Shown: positions 25,843 through 33,994 of the stretch, one piece after another
How positions within the stretch are numbered: the first letter of the stretch is position 1
Layout: each line of letters starts with the position of its first letter
Source of the DNA: Candidatus Thorarchaeota archaeon
GTDB taxonomy: Archaea > Asgardarchaeota > Thorarchaeia > Thorarchaeales > Thorarchaeaceae
Assembly: GCA_048882485.1 (NCBI GenBank)
Contig: JBHLRP010000006.1
Coordinates: 42,423 to 106,422, forward strand
DNA length: 64,000 nt
Reading direction: 5' to 3'
The notes under the pieces: generated by a model
The model's input: only the letters and a program-made list of their open reading frames with translations
What the model was told of the DNA's origin: nothing
The model's database searches: none
Made by a program: the position numbers and the translations under genes

Positions 25843-26307
25843 TCAGATCTTCTTTAATGCAGCCTTCACCATGGCTGTGATTCGGTTTTCATCAATGCCC
25901 GTTTTCTTGGCCACTTTATCAATCTCACAATATGCCAAATCGGATAATGACTTTATGCCAGCCTCTACTAGCTTCTGTGCCTCATCCTTTTTGACCGCTC
26001 GTAGTGATGACAGCTCTTCTACCGCCTTGTCATCTTTCTTTGTCCTTTTCGGCTTGGCTACTTCAATCTTGGTCATCTGAGCAACAAGTTCATCGAGGTC
26101 CTTGATATACTGCTTTAAAGCTTCCACGTTCTCTTCATGGGTCGTCTTCCGTCTGACATCTATTATGAGGCCCATCCGGCGTGCCTCTTCAATCGCCAGT
26201 CCAGCCTTCTTTGTTTCATCAATACTAAAACCTCGTCCGCGCCGTGGATCTGCTTTGCTAGGCGACTTAACGAGGGGTTCTGCTGCTATTTCAAAGGTCA
26301 AGGACAA
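25843..26307 (-). CDS. rpl13e: 50S ribosomal protein L13e with C-terminal HhH extension
   Basis: RRGRGFSIDE...AGL...GLIIDVRRKT..EENVEAL; extension ELSSLRAVKKDEAQKLVEAGIKSLSDLA; GGTGA SD-like sequence at the start. Confidence 0.9.
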   Translation of the reverse strand: MSLTFEIAAEPLVKSPSKADPRRGRGFSIDETKKAGLAIEEARRMGLIIDVRRKTTHEENVEALKQYIKDLDELVAQMTKIEVAKPKRTKKDDKAVEELSSLRAVKKDEAQKLVEAGIKSLSDLAYCEIDKVAKKTGIDENRITAMVKAALKKI

Positions 26308-26339
26308 TCACCAAATTCGGCACGCCAGCCTGAGGACTA

Positions 26340-26354
26340 CTTATTAGGCTTTCG
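26340..26354 (-). promoter_or_regulatory. Putative BRE-TATA of rpl13e (CGAAAG-CCTAATAAG), overlapping cassette-site core copy 1
   Basis: About 33-45 nt upstream of the rpl13e start; purine-rich BRE-like element followed by a TATA-like box. Confidence 0.6.
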
Positions 26355-26362
26355 AGATGGCA
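26342..26362 (+). repeat. Cassette site copy 1 (core only, rpl13e-proximal)
   Basis: TATTAGGCTTTCGAGATGGCA; preceded by inverted AGCCT (26327-31) rather than the cassette palindrome. Confidence 0.9.
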
Positions 26363-26565
26363 AGAGTCTGCATATTCGTGTACGCTAATAGGCAAATTAG
26401 TTTTCGAGGGATTTTAATGGTGCATAGATTATACAAAGAAGTACTCAATCGTAGATATATGAACCATTCATCACAAGCGTTATGGCAAGCACTCTCTGTT
26501 GCTAAAAGGATGCCCCCACCTACCAAACTAACTTCTCAATGGATATTGAGATAAGAGCGATGGTT

Positions 26566-27387
26566 CTATTCAAACTTTTCAAACTTATCTTTAGGCAATT
26601 TTGAAGACCGAAGCAAACCTTTCTGTTTCTCAATCTTCTCCTCTTGCTCATCTGAAGGTCGTATCAAACGTTTCTGCTCATCAATCTTCAACCTTCGCTC
26701 TTCAGTGAGTCTTGTTGGATCAATCTTCCCTTCACGAAGTATCTCCTTGAATTCATCGATGAGGTAATCCTTGATTGTGCAAAGTGAGCCACTTTCATAC
26801 CTATCGCATTCTCGGATCATATCTGGAAAATAGTAAAAGCTTTCCCTCATCAAATAATGTATCGCCATGTCATCATCATAATAGTCTGGTTCTTTTTCAA
26901 GAACAAACAAGTAATATTCCTCTATTATATGGACATCGAGAATATCATCACTATATGCAATCTTCTTTGGATACGATTTCGCATACTCCTTCAGGATACA
27001 GAAATCAACATCAGTCATAATAGAAGCGATATGTTCTGCTATAGACTTCTTCACAGTGCGAATAATACTCAACTGGCTATCCAATGCCCCATCTTGAATG
27101 CGTTCTTTCAATTCAGCATCATAGATCCAATATCTAGAGAATTCAACTAGTCCTTCAAGTTCATCTTGAATCTTTGACGGTAATTTCGAGAAGCTAGGAA
27201 AGGTTCTGAGAGCAAAGAATGAAGGTCCAGCCTTTTCATACTGCTCCTGTATCCCACGGTTCGTAGTCTTCTCATGTCGATTTCGATCAATCTTCTCGAG
27301 AATTGTGAGAATCGTACTAATCGAGTGGTCTTCATCTTTCGACTCTCGTGTTGGCGAGATTACACCTCTGTTGTCATCATCGCTAAT
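26566..27387 (-). CDS. Cassette 1 hypothetical acidic protein (frame open to an ATT codon at 27387; 273 aa)
   Basis: Frame of track ORF 26566..27111 stays open 92 more codons to ATT-AGC-GAT-GAT (ISDD), next to an in-frame TAG. Confidence 0.6.
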   Translation of the reverse strand: MSDDDNRGVISPTRESKDEDHSISTILTILEKIDRNRHEKTTNRGIQEQYEKAGPSFFALRTFPSFSKLPSKIQDELEGLVEFSRYWIYDAELKERIQDGALDSQLSIIRTVKKSIAEHIASIMTDVDFCILKEYAKSYPKKIAYSDDILDVHIIEEYYLFVLEKEPDYYDDDMAIHYLMRESFYYFPDMIRECDRYESGSLCTIKDYLIDEFKEILREGKIDPTRLTEERRLKIDEQKRLIRPSDEQEEKIEKQKGLLRSSKLPKDKFEKFE

Positions 27388-27521
27388 CTAATCCAACCCC
27401 CTGTACAAACGAGAAGTGCTCTACGATTTATGTCTTCCCAGCTCAGATGTGTTGCAATATCAACTCTGGTAGTATTATATGATATGTTAAAAGTGGAAGA
27501 CAGAAGGGAGTTGCCAAACAG

Positions 27522-27591
27522 ATTTATTCAGATGCGCGTTTAAGTATATATTAGTTGGCAGGAGTTCGCCTATTAGGCTTTCGAGATGGCA
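27522..27591 (+). repeat. Cassette site copy 2
   Basis: ATTTATTCAGA-TGCGCG-TTTAAGTATAT-ATTAGTTGGCA-GGAGTTCGCC-TATTAGGCTTTCGAGATGGCA. Confidence 0.9.
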
Positions 27592-27619
27592 AGGAATCGC
27601 CGTTAGTTCATAGTGATTA

Positions 27620-27820
27620 CTAGCGTTTCATTGACAGGACAAGTGCCTCTGTCAATACTCCTAGAGCAAAGAGAGCAGCCAGAGGGAGAATGACGAATAT
27701 GAAGGGGACTTCAGGGCTCATACCTGGAGGGTGAATGTCCAGAAGTATGAACACTATAGTAGCCACTATCAGAATGCCAGAGATCAGAATTAACTTTCTG
27801 GGTCTACTCATGGAGTCCAA
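27620..27820 (-). CDS. Cassette 2 small two-TM membrane protein
   Basis: 66 aa, two hydrophobic helices; paralog at 31959..32189. Confidence 0.75.
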   Translation of the reverse strand: MDSMSRPRKLILISGILIVATIVFILLDIHPPGMSPEVPFIFVILPLAALFALGVLTEALVLSMKR

Positions 27821-27906
27821 TTGATTTCCCTGTAGCCTTCACTCTTTGTACACATATGCTTTTGGACAACTCACAGTTCACTACGAAGAAGACTATCATT
27901 CGGAGC

Positions 27907-27976
27907 CTTTACTTAGATAGGCGTTTAAGTATATACTAGGAGGCAAAAGGCCGCTTATTAGGCTTTCGAGATGGCA
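27907..27976 (+). repeat. Cassette site copy 3
   Basis: CTTTACTTAGA-TAGGCG-TTTAAGTATAT-ACTAGGAGGCA-AAAGGCCGCT-TATTAGGCTTTCGAGATGGCA. Confidence 0.9.
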
Positions 27977-28144
27977 ATGAAATGCGTATTATGTAGGAGT
28001 GACTGGCATTGACTGAGGCCGTTTGCTTTCCTGTAATACCTCCAGAACGAGCACTACCACCTGTGCTTGAGGATAGCATTGCACGTTTGTGAATGAATCA
28101 CATGACGCTCATTCTTGATTCTGAGTTTCTTGCCTATTAGTGGT

Positions 28145-29242
28145 TCAAGTTCTCCTCATTCTCAATAGAAACAAGCCAAGTATTGCTGCCCCCACAATCA
28201 ATACTATGAGTATAGGATATAAAAGAGGTATGATTCCTGGATATGTCCTCGGAAATCTGTCTTCGTGTCCTGATGAACCATCAATCAAGTATGTGCCAAA
28301 TCCGAAATAATCATCCCAATAGTTGCCTAATTGATTTGAGTCATCCCAAGTGTTATTTGTTCCTCGATCGCGTGCATTGGACACTCCGTTTCGTAGAAAG
28401 TAATTCTCATAAAGCACATTTCCAGATCCTTCCAAATCAATCCCATACCCTGAGTTGTCAGAAAGGATGTTTCCAATGAATTTACAGTTCATCGCAAAAG
28501 CAGTTATGCCATAGGCACCAGAATCAGCAATATTGTTTTGTAGCACCTCAATCTGTGATATTTCATCCAGGTGCATTCCATGACTATTGCTTGAGTGAAT
28601 TGAGTTTGAAATGATTCTTAAATTGGATGCATTACTGAGATGCATACCAGTCGATTGAGAGTCTGTAATTTGATTGTCTACAATACTTGTGTTCGTTGCG
28701 TCTATCATATCAATTCCTGAGTTCAACATCACATTACTAGAAAACGCACAATTATCAACACGGATTGCGTAGATGCCTTGACTTTGTTGTGACCGTACAT
28801 CGTTACCAGTCATGTTAGTATTCTCGCACTCGACCAAAAGGACACACGCTGCATTCCCATCAATATCACAGTCCTCGATGATACCGTTTTCGACATTTAT
28901 GAGTTCGATAGCATTGTAGCCAAGTGCTGTGCTTTCAAACCAATAGGACTCCAGCTGACAGTTTCTAATGGTGAAATATACAGTAGTATTGCTAATTGAG
29001 ATACAAGAGGTGTTTGTAAAAATCCGTATATTCTCAATGATGAAGGGATGCGCGACAGAGCCATCCCCAGGCCACCCTTGTTCAGTGAAATTTGAGTCAT
29101 CCGAAATGACTATTGGCGGATGATCTGTAGTAGCAATAGCGGCGTCAAGAGTTAATCGATTAATGGTGGTATATGCAAGAAAGGGTATTGAAACAATTAC
29201 TAGTAGAATTGCAACTGATGTTACACGCCACACCGAATTCAC
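28145..29242 (-). CDS. Cassette 3 surface-anchored right-handed beta-helix (NosD/PbH1-like) protein
   Basis: N-terminal signal/TM, WPGDGS..PFIIEN, Asn-rich GI/GM repeats, GNYWDDY, C-terminal TM. Confidence 0.85.
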   Translation of the reverse strand: MNSVWRVTSVAILLVIVSIPFLAYTTINRLTLDAAIATTDHPPIVISDDSNFTEQGWPGDGSVAHPFIIENIRIFTNTSCISISNTTVYFTIRNCQLESYWFESTALGYNAIELINVENGIIEDCDIDGNAACVLLVECENTNMTGNDVRSQQSQGIYAIRVDNCAFSSNVMLNSGIDMIDATNTSIVDNQITDSQSTGMHLSNASNLRIISNSIHSSNSHGMHLDEISQIEVLQNNIADSGAYGITAFAMNCKFIGNILSDNSGYGIDLEGSGNVLYENYFLRNGVSNARDRGTNNTWDDSNQLGNYWDDYFGFGTYLIDGSSGHEDRFPRTYPGIIPLLYPILIVLIVGAAILGLFLLRMRRT

Positions 29243-29398
29243 TATGACAATATATACTAATTCTGTTATTGAAGTTTATCCCAGAAGATGCTCTAGATTT
29301 GTGAAGATCCCAATTCTTAATTGATTCCTTAAATTCTCAACAAAAGGCATCCTTGAATCGAATACGTAATAGTATCACTATGGAGACAGGAATGATGA

Positions 29399-29468
29399 TT
29401 TTGTTCAAATTCGCCTTTAAGCAAAGACTAGTTCGCAGGTTCCTGCTTATTAGGCTTTCGAGATGGCA
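29399..29468 (+). repeat. Cassette site copy 4
   Basis: TTTTGTTCAAA-TTCGCC-TTTAAGCAAAG-ACTAGTTCGCA-GGTTCCTGCT-TATTAGGCTTTCGAGATGGCA. Confidence 0.9.
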
Positions 29469-29572
29469 TTACTCTGCGTATTCGTGTACGCTAGAAGGCA
29501 AAGTCCAAAAAGTGACATAGGTTGATTCACTCTGTTCTGAGAGAGAAGAAGGAGGAAAAGGCATGACGGAAA

Positions 29573-29812
29573 GTGAATAAGATGCATGAGGACAGAAGGA
29601 AGTGGTTAGCTGTAATTGTACTGGTTATTCCATTAATACTGATATTTCTCATATTTGCACCGTCATACTATGAAACTTTGACGATTGAAGGAAAACGTGT
29701 TTTTATGTTGGTGTTTCAGATTGTATTCCTATACACTTTAGGCGGTCTTGTGTTGCGTTGGCTTGAAGGTAGACATAAAGTAAAGGATGACTCAAACACG
29801 CCTTTGACTTAA
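29573..29812 (+). CDS. Cassette 4 small two-TM membrane protein
   Basis: Two hydrophobic helices; stop codon lies inside the right arm of site copy 5. Confidence 0.7.
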   Translation: MNKMHEDRRKWLAVIVLVIPLILIFLIFAPSYYETLTIEGKRVFMLVFQIVFLYTLGGLVLRWLEGRHKVKDDSNTPLT

Positions 29813-29855
29813 CGCTAAGAGGAATTCTCGCGTGGATTAGGCTTTCGAGATGGCA
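29786..29855 (+). repeat. Cassette site copy 5
   Basis: GATGACTCAAA-CACGCC-TTTGACTTAAC-GCTAAGAGGAA-TTCTCGCGTG-GATTAGGCTTTCGAGATGGCA. Confidence 0.88.
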
Positions 29856-29867
29856 AAACAATATCAT

Positions 29868-30665
29868 TCACTTGATATCCAGTCCGAAAACAGACTCGAC
29901 TAATTCAGCAAATCGTGCGACAAAGCGAGCTGCAGGACCGCCATCAACCACATCATGGTTCATGAAGATACTGACACAGAGGTATTCTCTAGCCAAAATG
30001 CTATCATCAATGACAGCTGGCTTCATTGCGATACCTCCTAGCGCAAAAAGCACAGGAGAGATGCTAATGGGGATGGCCCATCCACTTTTTCCCTTGCCAT
30101 ACATTCCAACTGCTGTAACTGTGACTGTACCAAGGTGCTTCTTGACAAAAAAGGGGTCAGTTCTAAACTTTCGCCAAAACAGGAAGTCACGCAGAAACTT
30201 TGGCAGTGCGAAAAGTCTTCGCATCATTTTTCGATTGATTGTATCAGAAATGTCACCATCTGTACGATATCGAACTGCCCATATTTCATCCTGGATCTCA
30301 TGCACAGTTTTTTCATTGGCTTTTCTTACAATGTATGTCTGAGCTCCTATCTCTTCATCCACCTGTCTTTCAACCATGACTGAAACATCTACATCTTTGA
30401 AAATGATCAATCGCTTCCCTTTTTTTATTGCATGAACATTTCTATGTTCGCTGACAGCTTGTGCGATGCACTTTGTTATCCAAGCTGTAAAGGAGAGCTC
30501 TCTTCCTGAGCTGTCTTCGTACTCTTTAATTAGTTGACGGCCTTTTGTGACATCCACCTCTATTAGACCTGAAATATAGTGGGAACGAAGTCCTTGTTCC
30601 ATTAATTCCACAACAATCTCACGCTCAAAGGGCTTTTCCTCATATTCTTCTATCAGGTCCATCAC
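29868..30665 (-). CDS. Cassette 5 stand-alone 2-oxoacid dehydrogenase E2-type acyltransferase catalytic domain
   Basis: EVDVT, LSFTAW, GTVTVTAVG, NHDVVDGGPAARF; no lipoyl domain. Confidence 0.88.
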   Translation of the reverse strand: MMDLIEEYEEKPFEREIVVELMEQGLRSHYISGLIEVDVTKGRQLIKEYEDSSGRELSFTAWITKCIAQAVSEHRNVHAIKKGKRLIIFKDVDVSVMVERQVDEEIGAQTYIVRKANEKTVHEIQDEIWAVRYRTDGDISDTINRKMMRRLFALPKFLRDFLFWRKFRTDPFFVKKHLGTVTVTAVGMYGKGKSGWAIPISISPVLFALGGIAMKPAVIDDSILAREYLCVSIFMNHDVVDGGPAARFVARFAELVESVFGLDIK

Positions 30666-30730
30666 AATCCTAGCAATGAGGATTGTAGCTTCAACGTATT
30701 ACTGTTTTGTCCAACCAAAAAGCTCGAGAG

Positions 30731-30793
30731 GTTTGTTTAGACGTGAGATTAAGTATAAAGCTGGGACAATCAATCGCCGCCTAGGCTTTTGAG
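30731..30793 (+). repeat. Cassette site copy 6 (degenerate)
   Basis: GTTTGTTTAGA-CGTGAG-ATTAAGTATAA ... CCTAGGCTTTTGAG; spacing 1 nt short. Confidence 0.7.
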
Positions 30794-30933
30794 CTAGATA
30801 ATGAAAAGGCAGGAGCATCTGAAACATTACTGTATCAGATAGAGTCATAGCGGCAGTTTTGCATAGTTGCCTGCGCTGAGAGGAATAATAATAGGACGCA
30901 TTACATCTACTGTGAGAAGGAGGGGTCCACACA

Positions 30934-31758
30934 ATGAAGTGTCGAATAGGAAATTCCGAAGTTCACTATGAAATGTATGGAGAAGGCAGACCAATCATCA
31001 GCTTACATGGTTTCACTCTAGACCACCGTTCGATGGTCGGCAGCATGGAACCTATCTTCGAGAGTAGAAATGGTTGGAAACGGATATACCTAGACTTGCC
31101 AGGACACGGTCAAACTCCAGGTCAGGAATGGATTAAGAACTCAGATAACATGCTGCAGGTTGTAATAGACTTCATTGACAATGTGATTCCTGACACGAGC
31201 TTCGCAATTGCAGGCTTGTCTTATGGTGGTTATCTAGCGCGAGGTTTAGTTCATAATAGACCAAAGCAAGTACTTGGACTACTACTAATCGTTCCTAGGA
31301 TTATTGGCCGCTCAGAAGATAGAATACGTCCTGAAAAGGCTGTGCTGGTGAGAGATGAAGAGTTTCTTTGCAGCCTTGAAGAAGAGGAACGCGAGAATTT
31401 TGTAGAGGTAGCAGTAATCCAAACTGAAGACATTTGGCCTCGCTATGCAGAGGAGATTGTACCTGCTGTTCAGATATCAGACACACAATTTCTAGGACGC
31501 TTGCAACCTGGTGATGATGATTTCAGCTTCGAAGTCGATTCTCTCTCTGTCATTTTCAGTGGTCCGACCCTCATTCTGGTAGGCCGACAAGATCATTGGG
31601 TGGGATATGAAGACGCTTGGAGAATCTTGGAAAAATATCCTCGCGCAACATTCGCGGTCTTGGATAGAGCAGGTCATGCTTTGCAGCTTGAGCAGACTGA
31701 GTTGTTCAATATGCTTGTATCTGAGTGGCTTGATAGAGTAGAAGAAGCTGAGAAGTAA
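30934..31758 (+). CDS. Alpha/beta hydrolase (putative cassette 6)
   Basis: LHGF, DLPGHG, GLSYGG nucleophile elbow, GRQD, AGHAL. Confidence 0.92.
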   Translation: MKCRIGNSEVHYEMYGEGRPIISLHGFTLDHRSMVGSMEPIFESRNGWKRIYLDLPGHGQTPGQEWIKNSDNMLQVVIDFIDNVIPDTSFAIAGLSYGGYLARGLVHNRPKQVLGLLLIVPRIIGRSEDRIRPEKAVLVRDEEFLCSLEEEERENFVEVAVIQTEDIWPRYAEEIVPAVQISDTQFLGRLQPGDDDFSFEVDSLSVIFSGPTLILVGRQDHWVGYEDAWRILEKYPRATFAVLDRAGHALQLEQTELFNMLVSEWLDRVEEAEK

Positions 31759-31857
31759 ATGAGGCCTCCGTGGCAGACACTCCTCACTCCTCTATGCTGC
31801 TATTGCGCCACACATTCCACTGTTGCTATGACGATTACATGCACTAGGATCTTGACC

Positions 31858-31877
31858 TATCACTTTTCGAGATAGCA
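31858..31877 (+). repeat. Cassette site copy 7 (degenerate core)
   Basis: TATCACTTTTCGAGATAGCA vs TATTAGGCTTTCGAGATGGCA. Confidence 0.6.
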
Positions 31878-31958
31878 GTAGCTTGACGTCTATGCAGGCT
31901 TGTAAAGCGGATATCATGAGCATATGGGAGGTTTGTTGATTGTGATGTCTTCCTCTTA

Positions 31959-32189
31959 TCACTCCCGTTTCCTCGTCAACACTGCTGCCATCGCCACCAT
32001 TGTTAATGGAATGACTATACTCAGAGGCAGTATGATGAACAACAGGGGCATTTGGATGTCGATTCCCTGGGGAATCATTTCCAGTAGCACATACACGATG
32101 GTGATAGCAAGCAGAGCTGTCATCACAATCAGGATCCCACCCCAAAGATATGCCCACCATGGCGCTCTGCCCAACGAGCCTTTCCCCAT
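31959..32189 (-). CDS. Small two-TM membrane protein, paralog of the cassette 2 gene (putative cassette 7)
   Basis: GILIV..TIV..LL...P.G....P..F.ILPL shared with 27620..27820; upstream DNA also homologous. Confidence 0.7.
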   Translation of the reverse strand: MGKGSLGRAPWWAYLWGGILIVMTALLAITIVYVLLEMIPQGIDIQMPLLFIILPLSIVIPLTMVAMAAVLTRKRE

Positions 32190-32318
32190 GTATTCCTGAT
32201 GAGTTCCTACCTTACTTGGTTGACGCAAGGAATTCAACTTATTCACTCTGATACTCGCTCTTTGCACACATATGCTTTTGCTCAAACCATTGTTCACTCC
32301 AAGATGCCATCATTTTGA

Positions 32319-32378
32319 AGCCATCTGAATGTGCGCCTATGCCTGAACTATGATGCAGAAGTTTGTCCATTGAAATCC
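32319..32378 (+). repeat. Cassette site copy 8 (highly degenerate, core lost)
   Basis: ...CTGAA-TGTGCG-CCTATGCCTGA-ACTATGATGCA-GAAGTTTGTC keeps the spacing and the ACTA..GCA / GxAGTTxGxC segments of copies 2-3. Confidence 0.4.
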
Positions 32379-32436
32379 GGTTGGATGCTATCTCCACTCG
32401 GTTTAGGCTAGTGTATACGGAGAAACGGTTCTGAAA

Positions 32437-33129
32437 TCAAAGAATGATGGTTCTCCGACTATCCAGCCAGAATGCAACCAAAGCAAACAATGCGTATAGG
32501 ATTTCTGACACCAAGGCGACAGTCAACATGTCTGGAAAGGTTTGGAAAGGAGTGATGATTATGAAGATGACAAGCGCAAACAGGAATGCAGATATGCCAT
32601 ATTTGCCCAATAGTCCGGTTCCTGAAGTGGTTGAATAGAAGTATATCAAGCCACCACCCAAGAGAATGATGGTCTCCAGTAGTATCGTTGCCGGAATGCT
32701 ATTCCATAGGCCCAGTCCTATTTTCATGTCTATTCCAGGAATCAATAGCAAATCCGGTGTATGAACAAGAAAATCCAAGAGGTAATGAGATAGAACACCA
32801 ACACCAAAGAGAAGAGCTGTTCTGTTTTTATAGGCGGCAGTTGCTGTTGAACTCCTCAAAGCAATGTACCTAACGAAAAGGAACACAGCCGCAGTCCAAG
32901 CAAGTGATCCAACTAGACTATGGGTAATTGGGAGATCATAGAGGTCAAAGGAATTAGCAGCTGTAAAACCTGGAGCAATCCGAGCGTTCTCGATTCCCAA
33001 GGGAAGGAAGATGAAGAAAGCAATATCCACCAGCTGCACAGCGATAAAAAGGAAGCCAAGTGATATTCCCGGGGCATATTTCTTTAGACCTAGAGCTATT
33101 CCATAATGTCCTATAAACACAAGAGTCAA
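32437..33129 (-). CDS. Membrane-bound metal-dependent hydrolase-like protein
   Basis: FIGHY, QLVD, THSL, SHYLLDFLVH, GLGLW; multiple TMs. Confidence 0.75.
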   Translation of the reverse strand: MTLVFIGHYGIALGLKKYAPGISLGFLFIAVQLVDIAFFIFLPLGIENARIAPGFTAANSFDLYDLPITHSLVGSLAWTAAVFLFVRYIALRSSTATAAYKNRTALLFGVGVLSHYLLDFLVHTPDLLLIPGIDMKIGLGLWNSIPATILLETIILLGGGLIYFYSTTSGTGLLGKYGISAFLFALVIFIIITPFQTFPDMLTVALVSEILYALFALVAFWLDSRRTIIL

Positions 33130-33172
33130 GCCTCAGACCTGAATAAAAGTATTGACATTTCAAATTGGCTCT

Positions 33173-33994
33173 TCAGAAATCCTCAAGCGAAGTCTGTTTG
33201 ATTGAGATGAAATTCTCCATCAGTTTCAGCTTCTGGAGCTGGCGTGGTGTGATACGTTCCATTAATTGTAGCATCTGTAGTGCATTGAATGGTGAATTTC
33301 CACTGAAATGATTGTTCCAGTACCCTAGAACCAACTCCGTCCGATTCATGATATCTTCTAGACGAGGCTTCCAAGCCATTAGCTCTTCTTCGGAGTAGAG
33401 GTAGTTGTACCACGGATTCACTCCATGGCCATGCCAGCGCACATACGCGAAATCAGTTGTGACACGCAAATCAATTGGGAGTTTGGGCTCATCAACAATA
33501 ACGTAGGCCACCCCATAGTCCTCAAGCAACCTTGATGTCTTCTGAGACAGCCAGCTCTCATCCCTGAACTCAATGGCATATCGAAAAGATGAGTCGAGCT
33601 GCGAGAGGAAGGCTTCAAGGTCTGCCATCTTCGATATATCCCAAGGAGGAAGTTGAATGAGCAAAGCCGCAATCTTGTTCTGAATCGGACTCATAAGTGA
33701 AAAGAACGATTTCAGTACTTCACCCCCTTCTCCTAATAGATTCATCCGACTGTCATGTGTCACTTTCTTGGGGAGCTTGGCTGTGAAGAATTTGCCCTCT
33801 TTGAGTGAAGCCAGATGCTTTATGAAATTAGGTTGCGGGAGAGAATAAAAGGTTGAGTTAATTTCCGCAGTTTCAAAGATTGCAAGATACTGTTGAAGGA
33901 GTGATTTTCCTGAGTAATAGAACACATCCTTCCAATCACTCTCATATGACCAACCACTTGTGCCAATATGGAGTCCTTTTCTTGACATTGTCAC
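33173..33994 (-). CDS. DUF72 (YecE-like) protein
   Basis: IGTSGWSY, EINSTFY, LIQLPP, AIEFRDESW, YVRWHG. Confidence 0.92.
   Translation of the reverse strand: MTMSRKGLHIGTSGWSYESDWKDVFYYSGKSLLQQYLAIFETAEINSTFYSLPQPNFIKHLASLKEGKFFTAKLPKKVTHDSRMNLLGEGGEVLKSFFSLMSPIQNKIAALLIQLPPWDISKMADLEAFLSQLDSSFRYAIEFRDESWLSQKTSRLLEDYGVAYVIVDEPKLPIDLRVTTDFAYVRWHGHGVNPWYNYLYSEEELMAWKPRLEDIMNRTELVLGYWNNHFSGNSPFNALQMLQLMERITPRQLQKLKLMENFISIKQTSLEDF

What the first reader, a model, noticed from the sequence alone, without database searches (positions are those of the whole stretch)
26325..32378. Integron-analogous array of single-gene cassettes anchored at the rpl13e promoter, with no integrase in the window
Seen: the 20-mer ATTAGGCTTTCGAGATGGCA occurs exactly five times (26343, 27572, 27957, 29449, 29836), with decayed copies at ~30780, ~31858 and a flank-only remnant at ~32320. 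Core-to-core intervals are 1229, 385, 1492, 387, ~944, ~1078 and ~510 bp. Each interval holds one ORF, in mixed orientation: a hypothetical protein, three small 2-TM proteins, a beta-helix surface protein, a stand-alone E2 acyltransferase domain and an alpha/beta hydrolase. Established: integrons capture one-gene cassettes at attI via attC hairpins with RYYYAAC...GTTRRRY boxes, and these sites lack that structure. Inference: a distinct site-specific cassette-capture platform in an Asgard archaeon, served by a recombinase encoded elsewhere.
Basis: partly seen in the sequence, partly recalled or inferred. Interest (0 to 1): 0.93.

Follow-up and report, generated by a model that had tools for sequence, protein, structure and literature searches.

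The report
Promoter-anchored gene cassettes in Asgard archaea
In a Thorarchaeota (Asgard) archaeon, small one-gene modules are stacked at the promoter of a ribosomal protein gene, each closed by a spare copy of that promoter; relatives carry the same modules in other orders, and the likely enzyme, a tyrosine recombinase, travels as one of the modules, so this works like an integron but is built from different parts.

Summary
Real, and larger than reported. The repeat is a 25-bp copy of the rpl13e promoter (BRE/TATA-like on the minus strand). It occurs only here in the genome, and the array fills the gap from rpl13e to DUF72 (26338-33172; up to 8 modules). Across Thorarchaeota this interval ranges from empty (10 of 36 closed loci) to 6.8 kb. 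Whole cassettes recur end to end at other ranks and in another genus. 'No integrase' needs correcting: cassette 1 starts with a 45-residue relic (26417-26554), 80% identical to an intact ~290-aa XerA-like tyrosine recombinase. That family sits right behind this promoter in three relatives. The same cassette ends and integrase family also build arrays at two other promoters, and one 0.8-kb cassette (86% identical) lies between different cores at two loci. It is not an integron: no attC hairpin, no IntI. Best reading: tandem accretion of non-autonomous mini-elements of a promoter-targeting integrative element. Whether the core is carried in or copied from the target is open, and no circle or activity was seen. 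The scan noted this array in another genome before (e1-5646565); I found no paper on it.

The parts
25843..26307 (-). rpl13e (ribosomal protein L13e), fixed left boundary; transcribed away from the array
   Evidence: PF01294 E 2e-12; conserved in relatives
26338..26362 (-). Site 1: the native rpl13e promoter, 25-bp core with BRE/TATA-like sequence 35 bp before the start codon; the chromosomal attachment site. Lacks the cassette right-end motifs
   Evidence: Conserved 34-40 bp upstream of rpl13e across the family; promoter role inferred from position and archaeal consensus
26362..27560 (.). Cassette 1 (left end starts with the TGC arm at 26369; right end closes with GCA at 27560)
26417..26554 (+). 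Integrase relic: first 45 codons of the tyrosine recombinase, then a stop
   Evidence: 35/44 identical to the N-terminus of intact P0003; 59% to P0002, E 1e-12; translation
26566..27111 (-). Cargo 1, 181-aa hypothetical protein
   Evidence: no Pfam or PHROG hit
27523..27591 (+). Site 2: 10-6-10 palindrome (27523-27548), GCA arm, 6-bp spacer, 25-bp core (27567-27591)
   Evidence: 72.6 bits
27620..27820 (-). Cargo 2, 66-aa hydrophobic protein; same cassette start in G016 and G001
   Evidence: 97% and 85% DNA identity from the core onward
27908..27976 (+). Site 3 (palindrome 27908-27933; core 27952-27976)
   Evidence: 74.7 bits
28145..29242 (-). Cargo 3, 365-aa beta-helix membrane-anchored protein; cassette shared end to end with G005 and at rank 1 in G011
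   Evidence: PF13229, PF05048; 97.6% over 1512 bp
29400..29468 (+). Site 4 (palindrome 29400-29425; core 29444-29468)
   Evidence: 71.0 bits
29573..29812 (+). Cargo 4, 79-aa hydrophobic protein; whole cassette also in another genus (G076)
   Evidence: 90.7% over 408 bp
29787..29855 (+). Site 5, palindrome decayed, core 29831-29855
   Evidence: 40.9 bits
29868..30665 (-). Cargo 5, stand-alone E2-type acyltransferase catalytic domain; rank 1 in G009, later ranks in G094, G011, G093
   Evidence: PF00198; 83-86% DNA identity
30731..30799 (+). Site 6, palindrome kept, core decayed
   Evidence: 17.9 bits, E 0.006 genome-wide
30934..31758 (+). Cargo 6, alpha/beta hydrolase
   Evidence: PF00561
31853..31890 (+). 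Site 7 remnant (right half of core plus a cassette-start motif)
   Evidence: 8.2 bits; weak
31959..32297 (-). Cargo 7, 112-aa hydrophobic protein; relatives occur in many arrays
32255..32390 (+). Possible site 8 remnant; not significant by itself
   Evidence: 44-bp repeat with the end of cassette 2 (D7); HMM E 0.17
32437..33129 (-). Cargo 8, YdjM-like membrane protein; follows a full site in G009, absent from this interval in the other fetched loci
33173..33994 (-). DUF72 gene, fixed right boundary in most relatives
   Evidence: PF01904; synteny

Best explanation
The array is a stack of miniature, mostly non-autonomous integrative elements that share the two ends of an element whose first gene is a ~290-aa XerA-like tyrosine recombinase. 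Shown: each cassette runs from a left end (TGC arm, often followed by the integrase start codon about 50 bp in) to a right end (10-6-10 palindrome, then GCA); between cassettes lie a 6-bp spacer, a 25-bp copy of the host promoter core, and another 6-bp spacer; cassettes occur whole at different ranks. Inferred: the integrase, supplied when an integrase-bearing cassette is present, excises cassettes as circles and inserts them at the promoter, with strand exchange at the right edge of the core. rpl13e keeps its promoter and a second copy ends up behind the newcomer, facing back into it, where it can drive the cargo gene. Internal deletion turns integrase-bearing elements into one-gene cassettes; old sites decay.
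For: Shuffling of whole cassettes and empty alleles. Intact or contig-cut integrase directly behind the rpl13e core in L169, G018 and G109, and behind a full internal site of the second array in L258, whose left end is 78% identical to window cassette 1. Catalytic R130, K156, H221-x-x-R224, W247, Y257 invariant; closest solved relatives XerA. 21 of 167 cassette starts keep the integrase start motif, most at +49/50, and 14 or so keep translatable N-terminal relics. A complete left end-integrase-cargo-right end element of 9383 bp between two copies of a third core (L166). Linkage: bases from core position +19 on follow the right-hand cassette (9/16 shared minor alleles at +19, 0/18 at +14), bases left of the core follow the left-hand one. 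26 of 38 closed cassettes have their longest ORF on the strand read from the right-hand promoter copy (cassettes not independent).
Against: No circle or skip junction was seen (contigs drop rare forms). No activity shown. Close, full-length family members occur in only four of the family genomes searched and in none of G000. About half of the cargo-bearing loci have a single core and no recognisable right end, including the integrase-bearing G109 locus, which needs decay or deletion as an extra assumption. Decay away from the promoter is clear in the window but not elsewhere (7 vs 7 site pairs outside it). A purely conservative scheme does not by itself explain how one cassette acquires a different core at both ends.
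Confidence: 0.72

Rival explanations
1. Target-duplicating insertion: the mobile unit is only left end-cargo-right end; the ~20-25-bp promoter core is copied from the target at each insertion (CRISPR-repeat-like or casposon-like outcome), by this tyrosine recombinase plus host repair. This is a variant of the best explanation that differs in the circle junction.
For: One cassette (794 vs 796 bp, 86% end to end) lies between core-1 copies in G093 and between core-2 copies in G035; no foreign core was found in either set of arrays. Internal cores share their host promoter's private variants in 11 of 25 cases against 2.7 by permutation. The three cores share little but the TATA-side half.
Against: 14 of 25 host variants are not shared. 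Tyrosine recombinases are conservative and are not known to duplicate targets (own knowledge). Lineage-local cassette pools, gene conversion between repeats, or cargo swapping by homologous recombination between shared ends could give the same pattern; kin are not independent.
Confidence: 0.25
2. Integron proper (CALIN): cassettes with attC sites moved by an IntI.
For: One-gene cassettes in tandem, reordering, enzyme usually missing; Asgard archaea are rich in true integrons (PMC9668308).
Against: No hairpin better than shuffles on either strand (z -1.1 to +0.7); integrase scores 38-54 bits against a 265-bit cut-off for integron integrases; integrase lies inside the array; cargo in both orientations.
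Confidence: 0.02
3. Portable promoter spread by homologous or illegitimate recombination: genes picked up a copy of a strong promoter, and repeats then allow RecA/RadA-type gain and loss without a dedicated enzyme; the integrase is one passenger among many.
For: The repeat is a promoter; most cargo faces away from it; intact integrase is rare.
Against: 25 bp is short for homologous recombination (own knowledge); cassette ends carry conserved palindromes and fixed 6-bp spacings that a promoter does not need; integrase start relics sit at a fixed offset in many cassettes; the same ends are used with other cores.
Confidence: 0.08
4. Transcription-factor site, MITE or assembly artefact.
For: None found.
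Against: Sites occur only at this locus; independent contigs span them at even depth; relatives show the same architecture.
Confidence: 0.01

Closest known systems
Tandem accretion of integrative elements and CIMEs (cis-mobilizable elements; Pavlovic 2004 as reviewed in PMC5704250)
   Same: Tandem elements at one chromosomal site, bounded by direct copies of the target; decayed members have lost the integrase but kept their ends.
   Different: Units are 0.4-2 kb and mostly one gene; they are reshuffled across genera; the target is a promoter, not a gene end; no conjugation genes seen; the same cassette occurs with different cores.
Integrons, including archaeal integrons and CALINs (PMC9668308)
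   Same: Ordered array of one-gene cassettes, tyrosine recombinase, arrays often without the enzyme.
   Different: No attC hairpin, no IntI, enzyme is itself a cassette, each cassette is closed by a promoter copy that faces back into it, mixed orientation.
Archaeal integrative elements with tyrosine integrases (review PMC8371274; Asgard element Yucahu-i, PMC11529989)
   Same: Integrase as first gene next to the attachment site; tandem integration and intergenic targets are known; a Holliday-junction-resolvase-like gene lies next to the integrase in L172, as in Yucahu-i.
   Different: Known targets are mostly tRNA genes; the passages read name no promoter BRE/TATA target and no one-gene cassette arrays.
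XerA/XerC/D and dif-type modules
   Same: Enzyme size and closest structures are XerA (5HXY, 4A8E); the right-end palindrome has a dif-like 10-6-10 layout.
   Different: 91-98 bits against a 220-bit XerA cut-off; patchy, mobile gene; the palindrome is absent from the promoter site, so it cannot be the crossover there.
Tn916/Tn1549-type integrases with coupling sequences
   Same: Variable 6-bp spacers next to both element ends; sequence and fold relatives.
   Different: No arm-binding extension, excisionase or conjugation genes seen; a fixed 25-bp core between units.
tRNA-3'-end cassette arrays of Thorarchaeota noted by this scan (unpublished AI notes)
   Same: One-gene modules bounded by 20-25-bp target copies, same organisms and same genome.
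   Different: In G000 their flanks show none of the end motifs described here; no integrase was linked to them.

Membership tests
Integron | attC sites that fold into a single-strand hairpin | tested here: not met
   Sites 2-5, both strands: z -1.14 to +0.71
Integron | IntI integrase with its specific insertion | tested here: not met
   TIGR02249 37.6-54.1 bits vs cut-off 265, partial match only; profile matches IntI4 over positions 36-172 but XerA over 18-255
Integron | Fixed integrase gene beside attI, outside the array | tested here: not met
   Integrase lies on the array side of the core, also at an internal site
Integron | Cassettes shuffled as units | tested here: met
Integron | IntegronFinder/HattCI detection | not testable with these tools
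   not installed
Tandem integrative elements / CIMEs | Direct copies of a chromosomal target bound each unit; empty target exists | tested here: met
Tandem integrative elements / CIMEs | Autonomous member with an intact site-specific recombinase at one end | tested here: met
   L169, L258, L166, G018, G109; catalytic residues invariant
Tandem integrative elements / CIMEs | Non-autonomous members derived by loss of the integrase, ends kept | tested here: met
   Integrase start relics at a fixed offset
Tandem integrative elements / CIMEs | Excision as a circle whose attP carries the core (conservative exchange) | tested here: inconclusive
   No joints in contigs; same cassette with different cores
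Tandem integrative elements / CIMEs | Derived from and mobilised by an ICE/IME (conjugation genes) | tested here: inconclusive
   No transfer genes among the L166 ORFs scanned; a D5-type primase-helicase lies 18 kb from an integrase copy in G018, link to the element not shown
XerA/dif system | Conserved chromosomal XerA orthologue | tested here: not met
   Below XerA cut-off; 6 of 301 phylum genomes at E 1e-40
CRISPR/casposon-type target duplication | Cas1-family integrase linked to the array | not tested
   No Cas1 search was run; the fetched integrase loci list none among called genes

The most novel reading that the evidence does not exclude
A tyrosine-recombinase system that recognises archaeal promoters (the BRE/TATA footprint) as a class of targets and duplicates the ~25-bp promoter core at every insertion, so that each captured gene receives a copy of a housekeeping promoter and the same cassette pool is shared between unrelated loci: an integron-like gene-capture system with CRISPR-like repeat duplication in Asgard archaea.
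Probability: 0.25. Interest if true: 0.92.

Novelty: new variant of a known kind. Interest (0 to 1): 0.76.

Why it matters
It gives a concrete, testable route for one-gene horizontal exchange across Thorarchaeota genera, outside integrons and tRNA islands. Unlike the integrase-less arrays noted elsewhere in these genomes, this one comes with mapped ends, three natural targets and intact candidate enzymes, so it can be assayed directly. Using a promoter as the attachment core would solve insertion safety and cargo expression in one step. If the core is copied rather than carried, that would be new chemistry for a tyrosine recombinase. A small recombinase that docks cargo at a promoter might also serve as an archaeal genetic tool.

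Tried and rejected
PF00589 search of the own genome: none; the family profile also finds no intact member there (genome 90.5% complete, so not found rather than absent). Viral contigs: neither the core nor the integrase was found. Rfam: nothing in the window region or at the second locus; no tRNA near the array. attC-type folding rejected. A weak PF00589 hit near the G022 locus was a false lead (ordinary genes). Polarity across arrays: not significant (rho -0.29, p 0.21). Reads: no RNA holder listed; no joints or circles in Logan contigs; run X5 covers both flanks but not cassettes 1-4, with no contig joining across, so it is not counted as evidence. Shared end motifs with the tRNA-end arrays of G000: none seen. 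Literature searches found no description of this system (the library lacks most subscription papers). No complex prediction was sent. One search failed on a coordinate slip and was re-sent corrected.
Full report
Observation. The 20-mer is present five times at the stated places and never in shuffles. It is absent from the rest of the genome at up to 3 mismatches. An HMM trained only on relatives' sites recovers window sites 1-6 as the only significant hits genome-wide. Sites 2-4 score 71-75 bits, then 40.9, 17.9, 8.2 and 4.7 with distance from rpl13e; the last two are weak. GC is 0.39-0.46 in cassettes against 0.46 in the flanks. Contigs from two studies span sites 1-7 at even depth. Named records with the same site are almost all Thorarchaeota MAGs.

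What the repeat is. Copy 1 lies 35 bp upstream of rpl13e and reads as a BRE/TATA-like promoter on the minus strand; it is conserved at that place across the family, also where no array exists. The promoter role is inferred from position and consensus, not measured. Internal copies add, on the left, a 10-6-10 palindrome and a GCA arm followed by 6 variable bases; on the right, 6 variable bases and a TGC arm. The promoter copy lacks the left-hand parts. No site folds like attC.

It is a cassette array. Between the promoter and DUF72, 36 closed loci range from 29 bp to 6831 bp; 10 are empty (113 bp or less) and the window has the longest. Window cassette 3 equals G005's third recognised cassette over all 1512 bp (97.6%) and is rank 1 in G011. 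Cassette 5 is rank 1 in G009 and later in three other genomes. Cassette 4 is found whole in another genus (90.7%). Many contigs end inside the array. Minor alleles show that bases from core position +19 follow the right-hand cassette and bases left of the core follow the left-hand one (small counts, related genomes).

The enzyme. PF00589 finds nothing in this genome. Integrases from relatives, however, matched DNA next to the rpl13e promoter in G018 and in the window itself. They define an Asgard family of 270-312-aa tyrosine recombinases with invariant catalytic residues, closest to XerA among solved proteins but below the XerA and far below the IntI cut-offs. An intact gene follows the rpl13e core in L169; contig-split copies do so in G018 and G109. 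The window keeps the first 45 codons, 80% identical to P0003. Many cassettes keep the integrase start about 50 bp from their left end, so they look like deletion derivatives of the integrase-bearing element. L166 holds a complete 9383-bp example. Full-length close members are rare: four family genomes, two of them a more distant subfamily with different sites.

Other targets. A second core matches in 24 of 86 family genomes and forms arrays in many of them, upstream of an acyl-CoA dehydrogenase gene in the locus checked. A third lies before a 96-aa hypothetical gene. All three are 25 bp with the same spacer geometry and a shared TATA-side half. Intact P0003 sits behind a full internal site of the second type, with a left end 78% identical to window cassette 1. 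One cassette is 86% identical end to end between the two loci yet has locus-specific cores on both sides, and no foreign core was found in either set. Internal cores share private variants of their own host promoter in 11 of 25 cases against 2.7 expected (kinship inflates this).

Mechanism. Shown: unit boundaries, shuffling, empty alleles, a linked intact recombinase family, several promoter-like targets. Inferred: circular intermediates, insertion at the promoter with exchange at the right edge of the core, expression of cargo from the right-hand promoter copy (26 of 38 cassettes are oriented for it), and supply of enzyme by a passing integrase cassette. Open: whether the core is carried by the circle, with occasional swaps through the second dyad or through homologous recombination, or is copied from the target. 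The data lean neither way decisively; I give copying 0.25. How cassettes move between cells is unknown; no viral contig carries the site or the enzyme.

Comparison. It works like an integron but fails the attC and IntI tests. It fits tandem accretion with CIME-like derivatives best. It differs in cassette size, reshuffling, promoter targets and the exchangeable core. The reviews read do not describe such a target or array in archaea. The scan's own notes list this array in another genome and several integrase-less tRNA-end arrays in Thorarchaeota; those in this genome do not share the ends described here.

Verdict. Real; a new variant of integrative-element accretion with integron-like behaviour and an identified candidate enzyme. 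Interest 0.76.

Noticed in passing
L244:7859, L245:7804, L246:206, L247:7237 and 9345, L248:2704: In five genomes of another genus the same 10-6-10 palindrome abuts the 5' end of initiator-tRNA-Met-like genes that carry variable extra insertions; in G098 there are two such copies, each with an upstream tRNA 5' fragment. May be a related element end or a host-factor site; no integrase nearby.
   Followed up: partly
G000 contigs C20, C71, C132, C82, C103, C26 (outside the window): Several arrays of tRNA 3'-end copies (Leu, Ala, Gly, Asp) in the same genome; their flanks lack the end motifs of the promoter cassettes.
   Followed up: partly
G000 contig C3, upstream of the 96-aa hypothetical gene: The third target core is present in this genome, followed by 6 bases and a partial second core-like stretch, with no cassette right end detected.
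   Followed up: no
L156 (G000:C1:203385-203501): Short fragment resembling the C-terminus of the integrase family (E 3e-5).
   Followed up: no
L170:9875-13727 and L129:6154-8871: A more distant subfamily of the integrase (P0012, about 45% identical) has its own different repeats: two copies 63 bp apart before the gene and one 2.6-3.8 kb away.
   Followed up: no
L125:1041-19825 (G018:C17): A second copy or allele of the integrase is followed by a TIR-domain (CAP12/Pycsar-type) gene, iteron-like repeats near 12.1-12.6 kb and a D5-type primase-helicase; could be a larger, plasmid-like carrier.
   Followed up: partly
L243:7500-8200 (G030:C28): A lone right end with a partial rpl13e-type core and a homologue of cargo 7, away from rpl13e: a stray cassette.
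   Followed up: no
window 29868-30665: Stand-alone E2-type acyltransferase catalytic domain travels as a cassette in at least five genomes; function unknown.
   Followed up: no
window 25843-26307: This L13e carries a C-terminal helix-hairpin-helix-like domain (weak Pfam hits below cut-off), with a longer linker in some relatives.
   Followed up: no
window 30761 (run X2): A contig joins cassette 6 to a different, better preserved right-end palindrome: another allele or relative in the same sediment.
   Followed up: no
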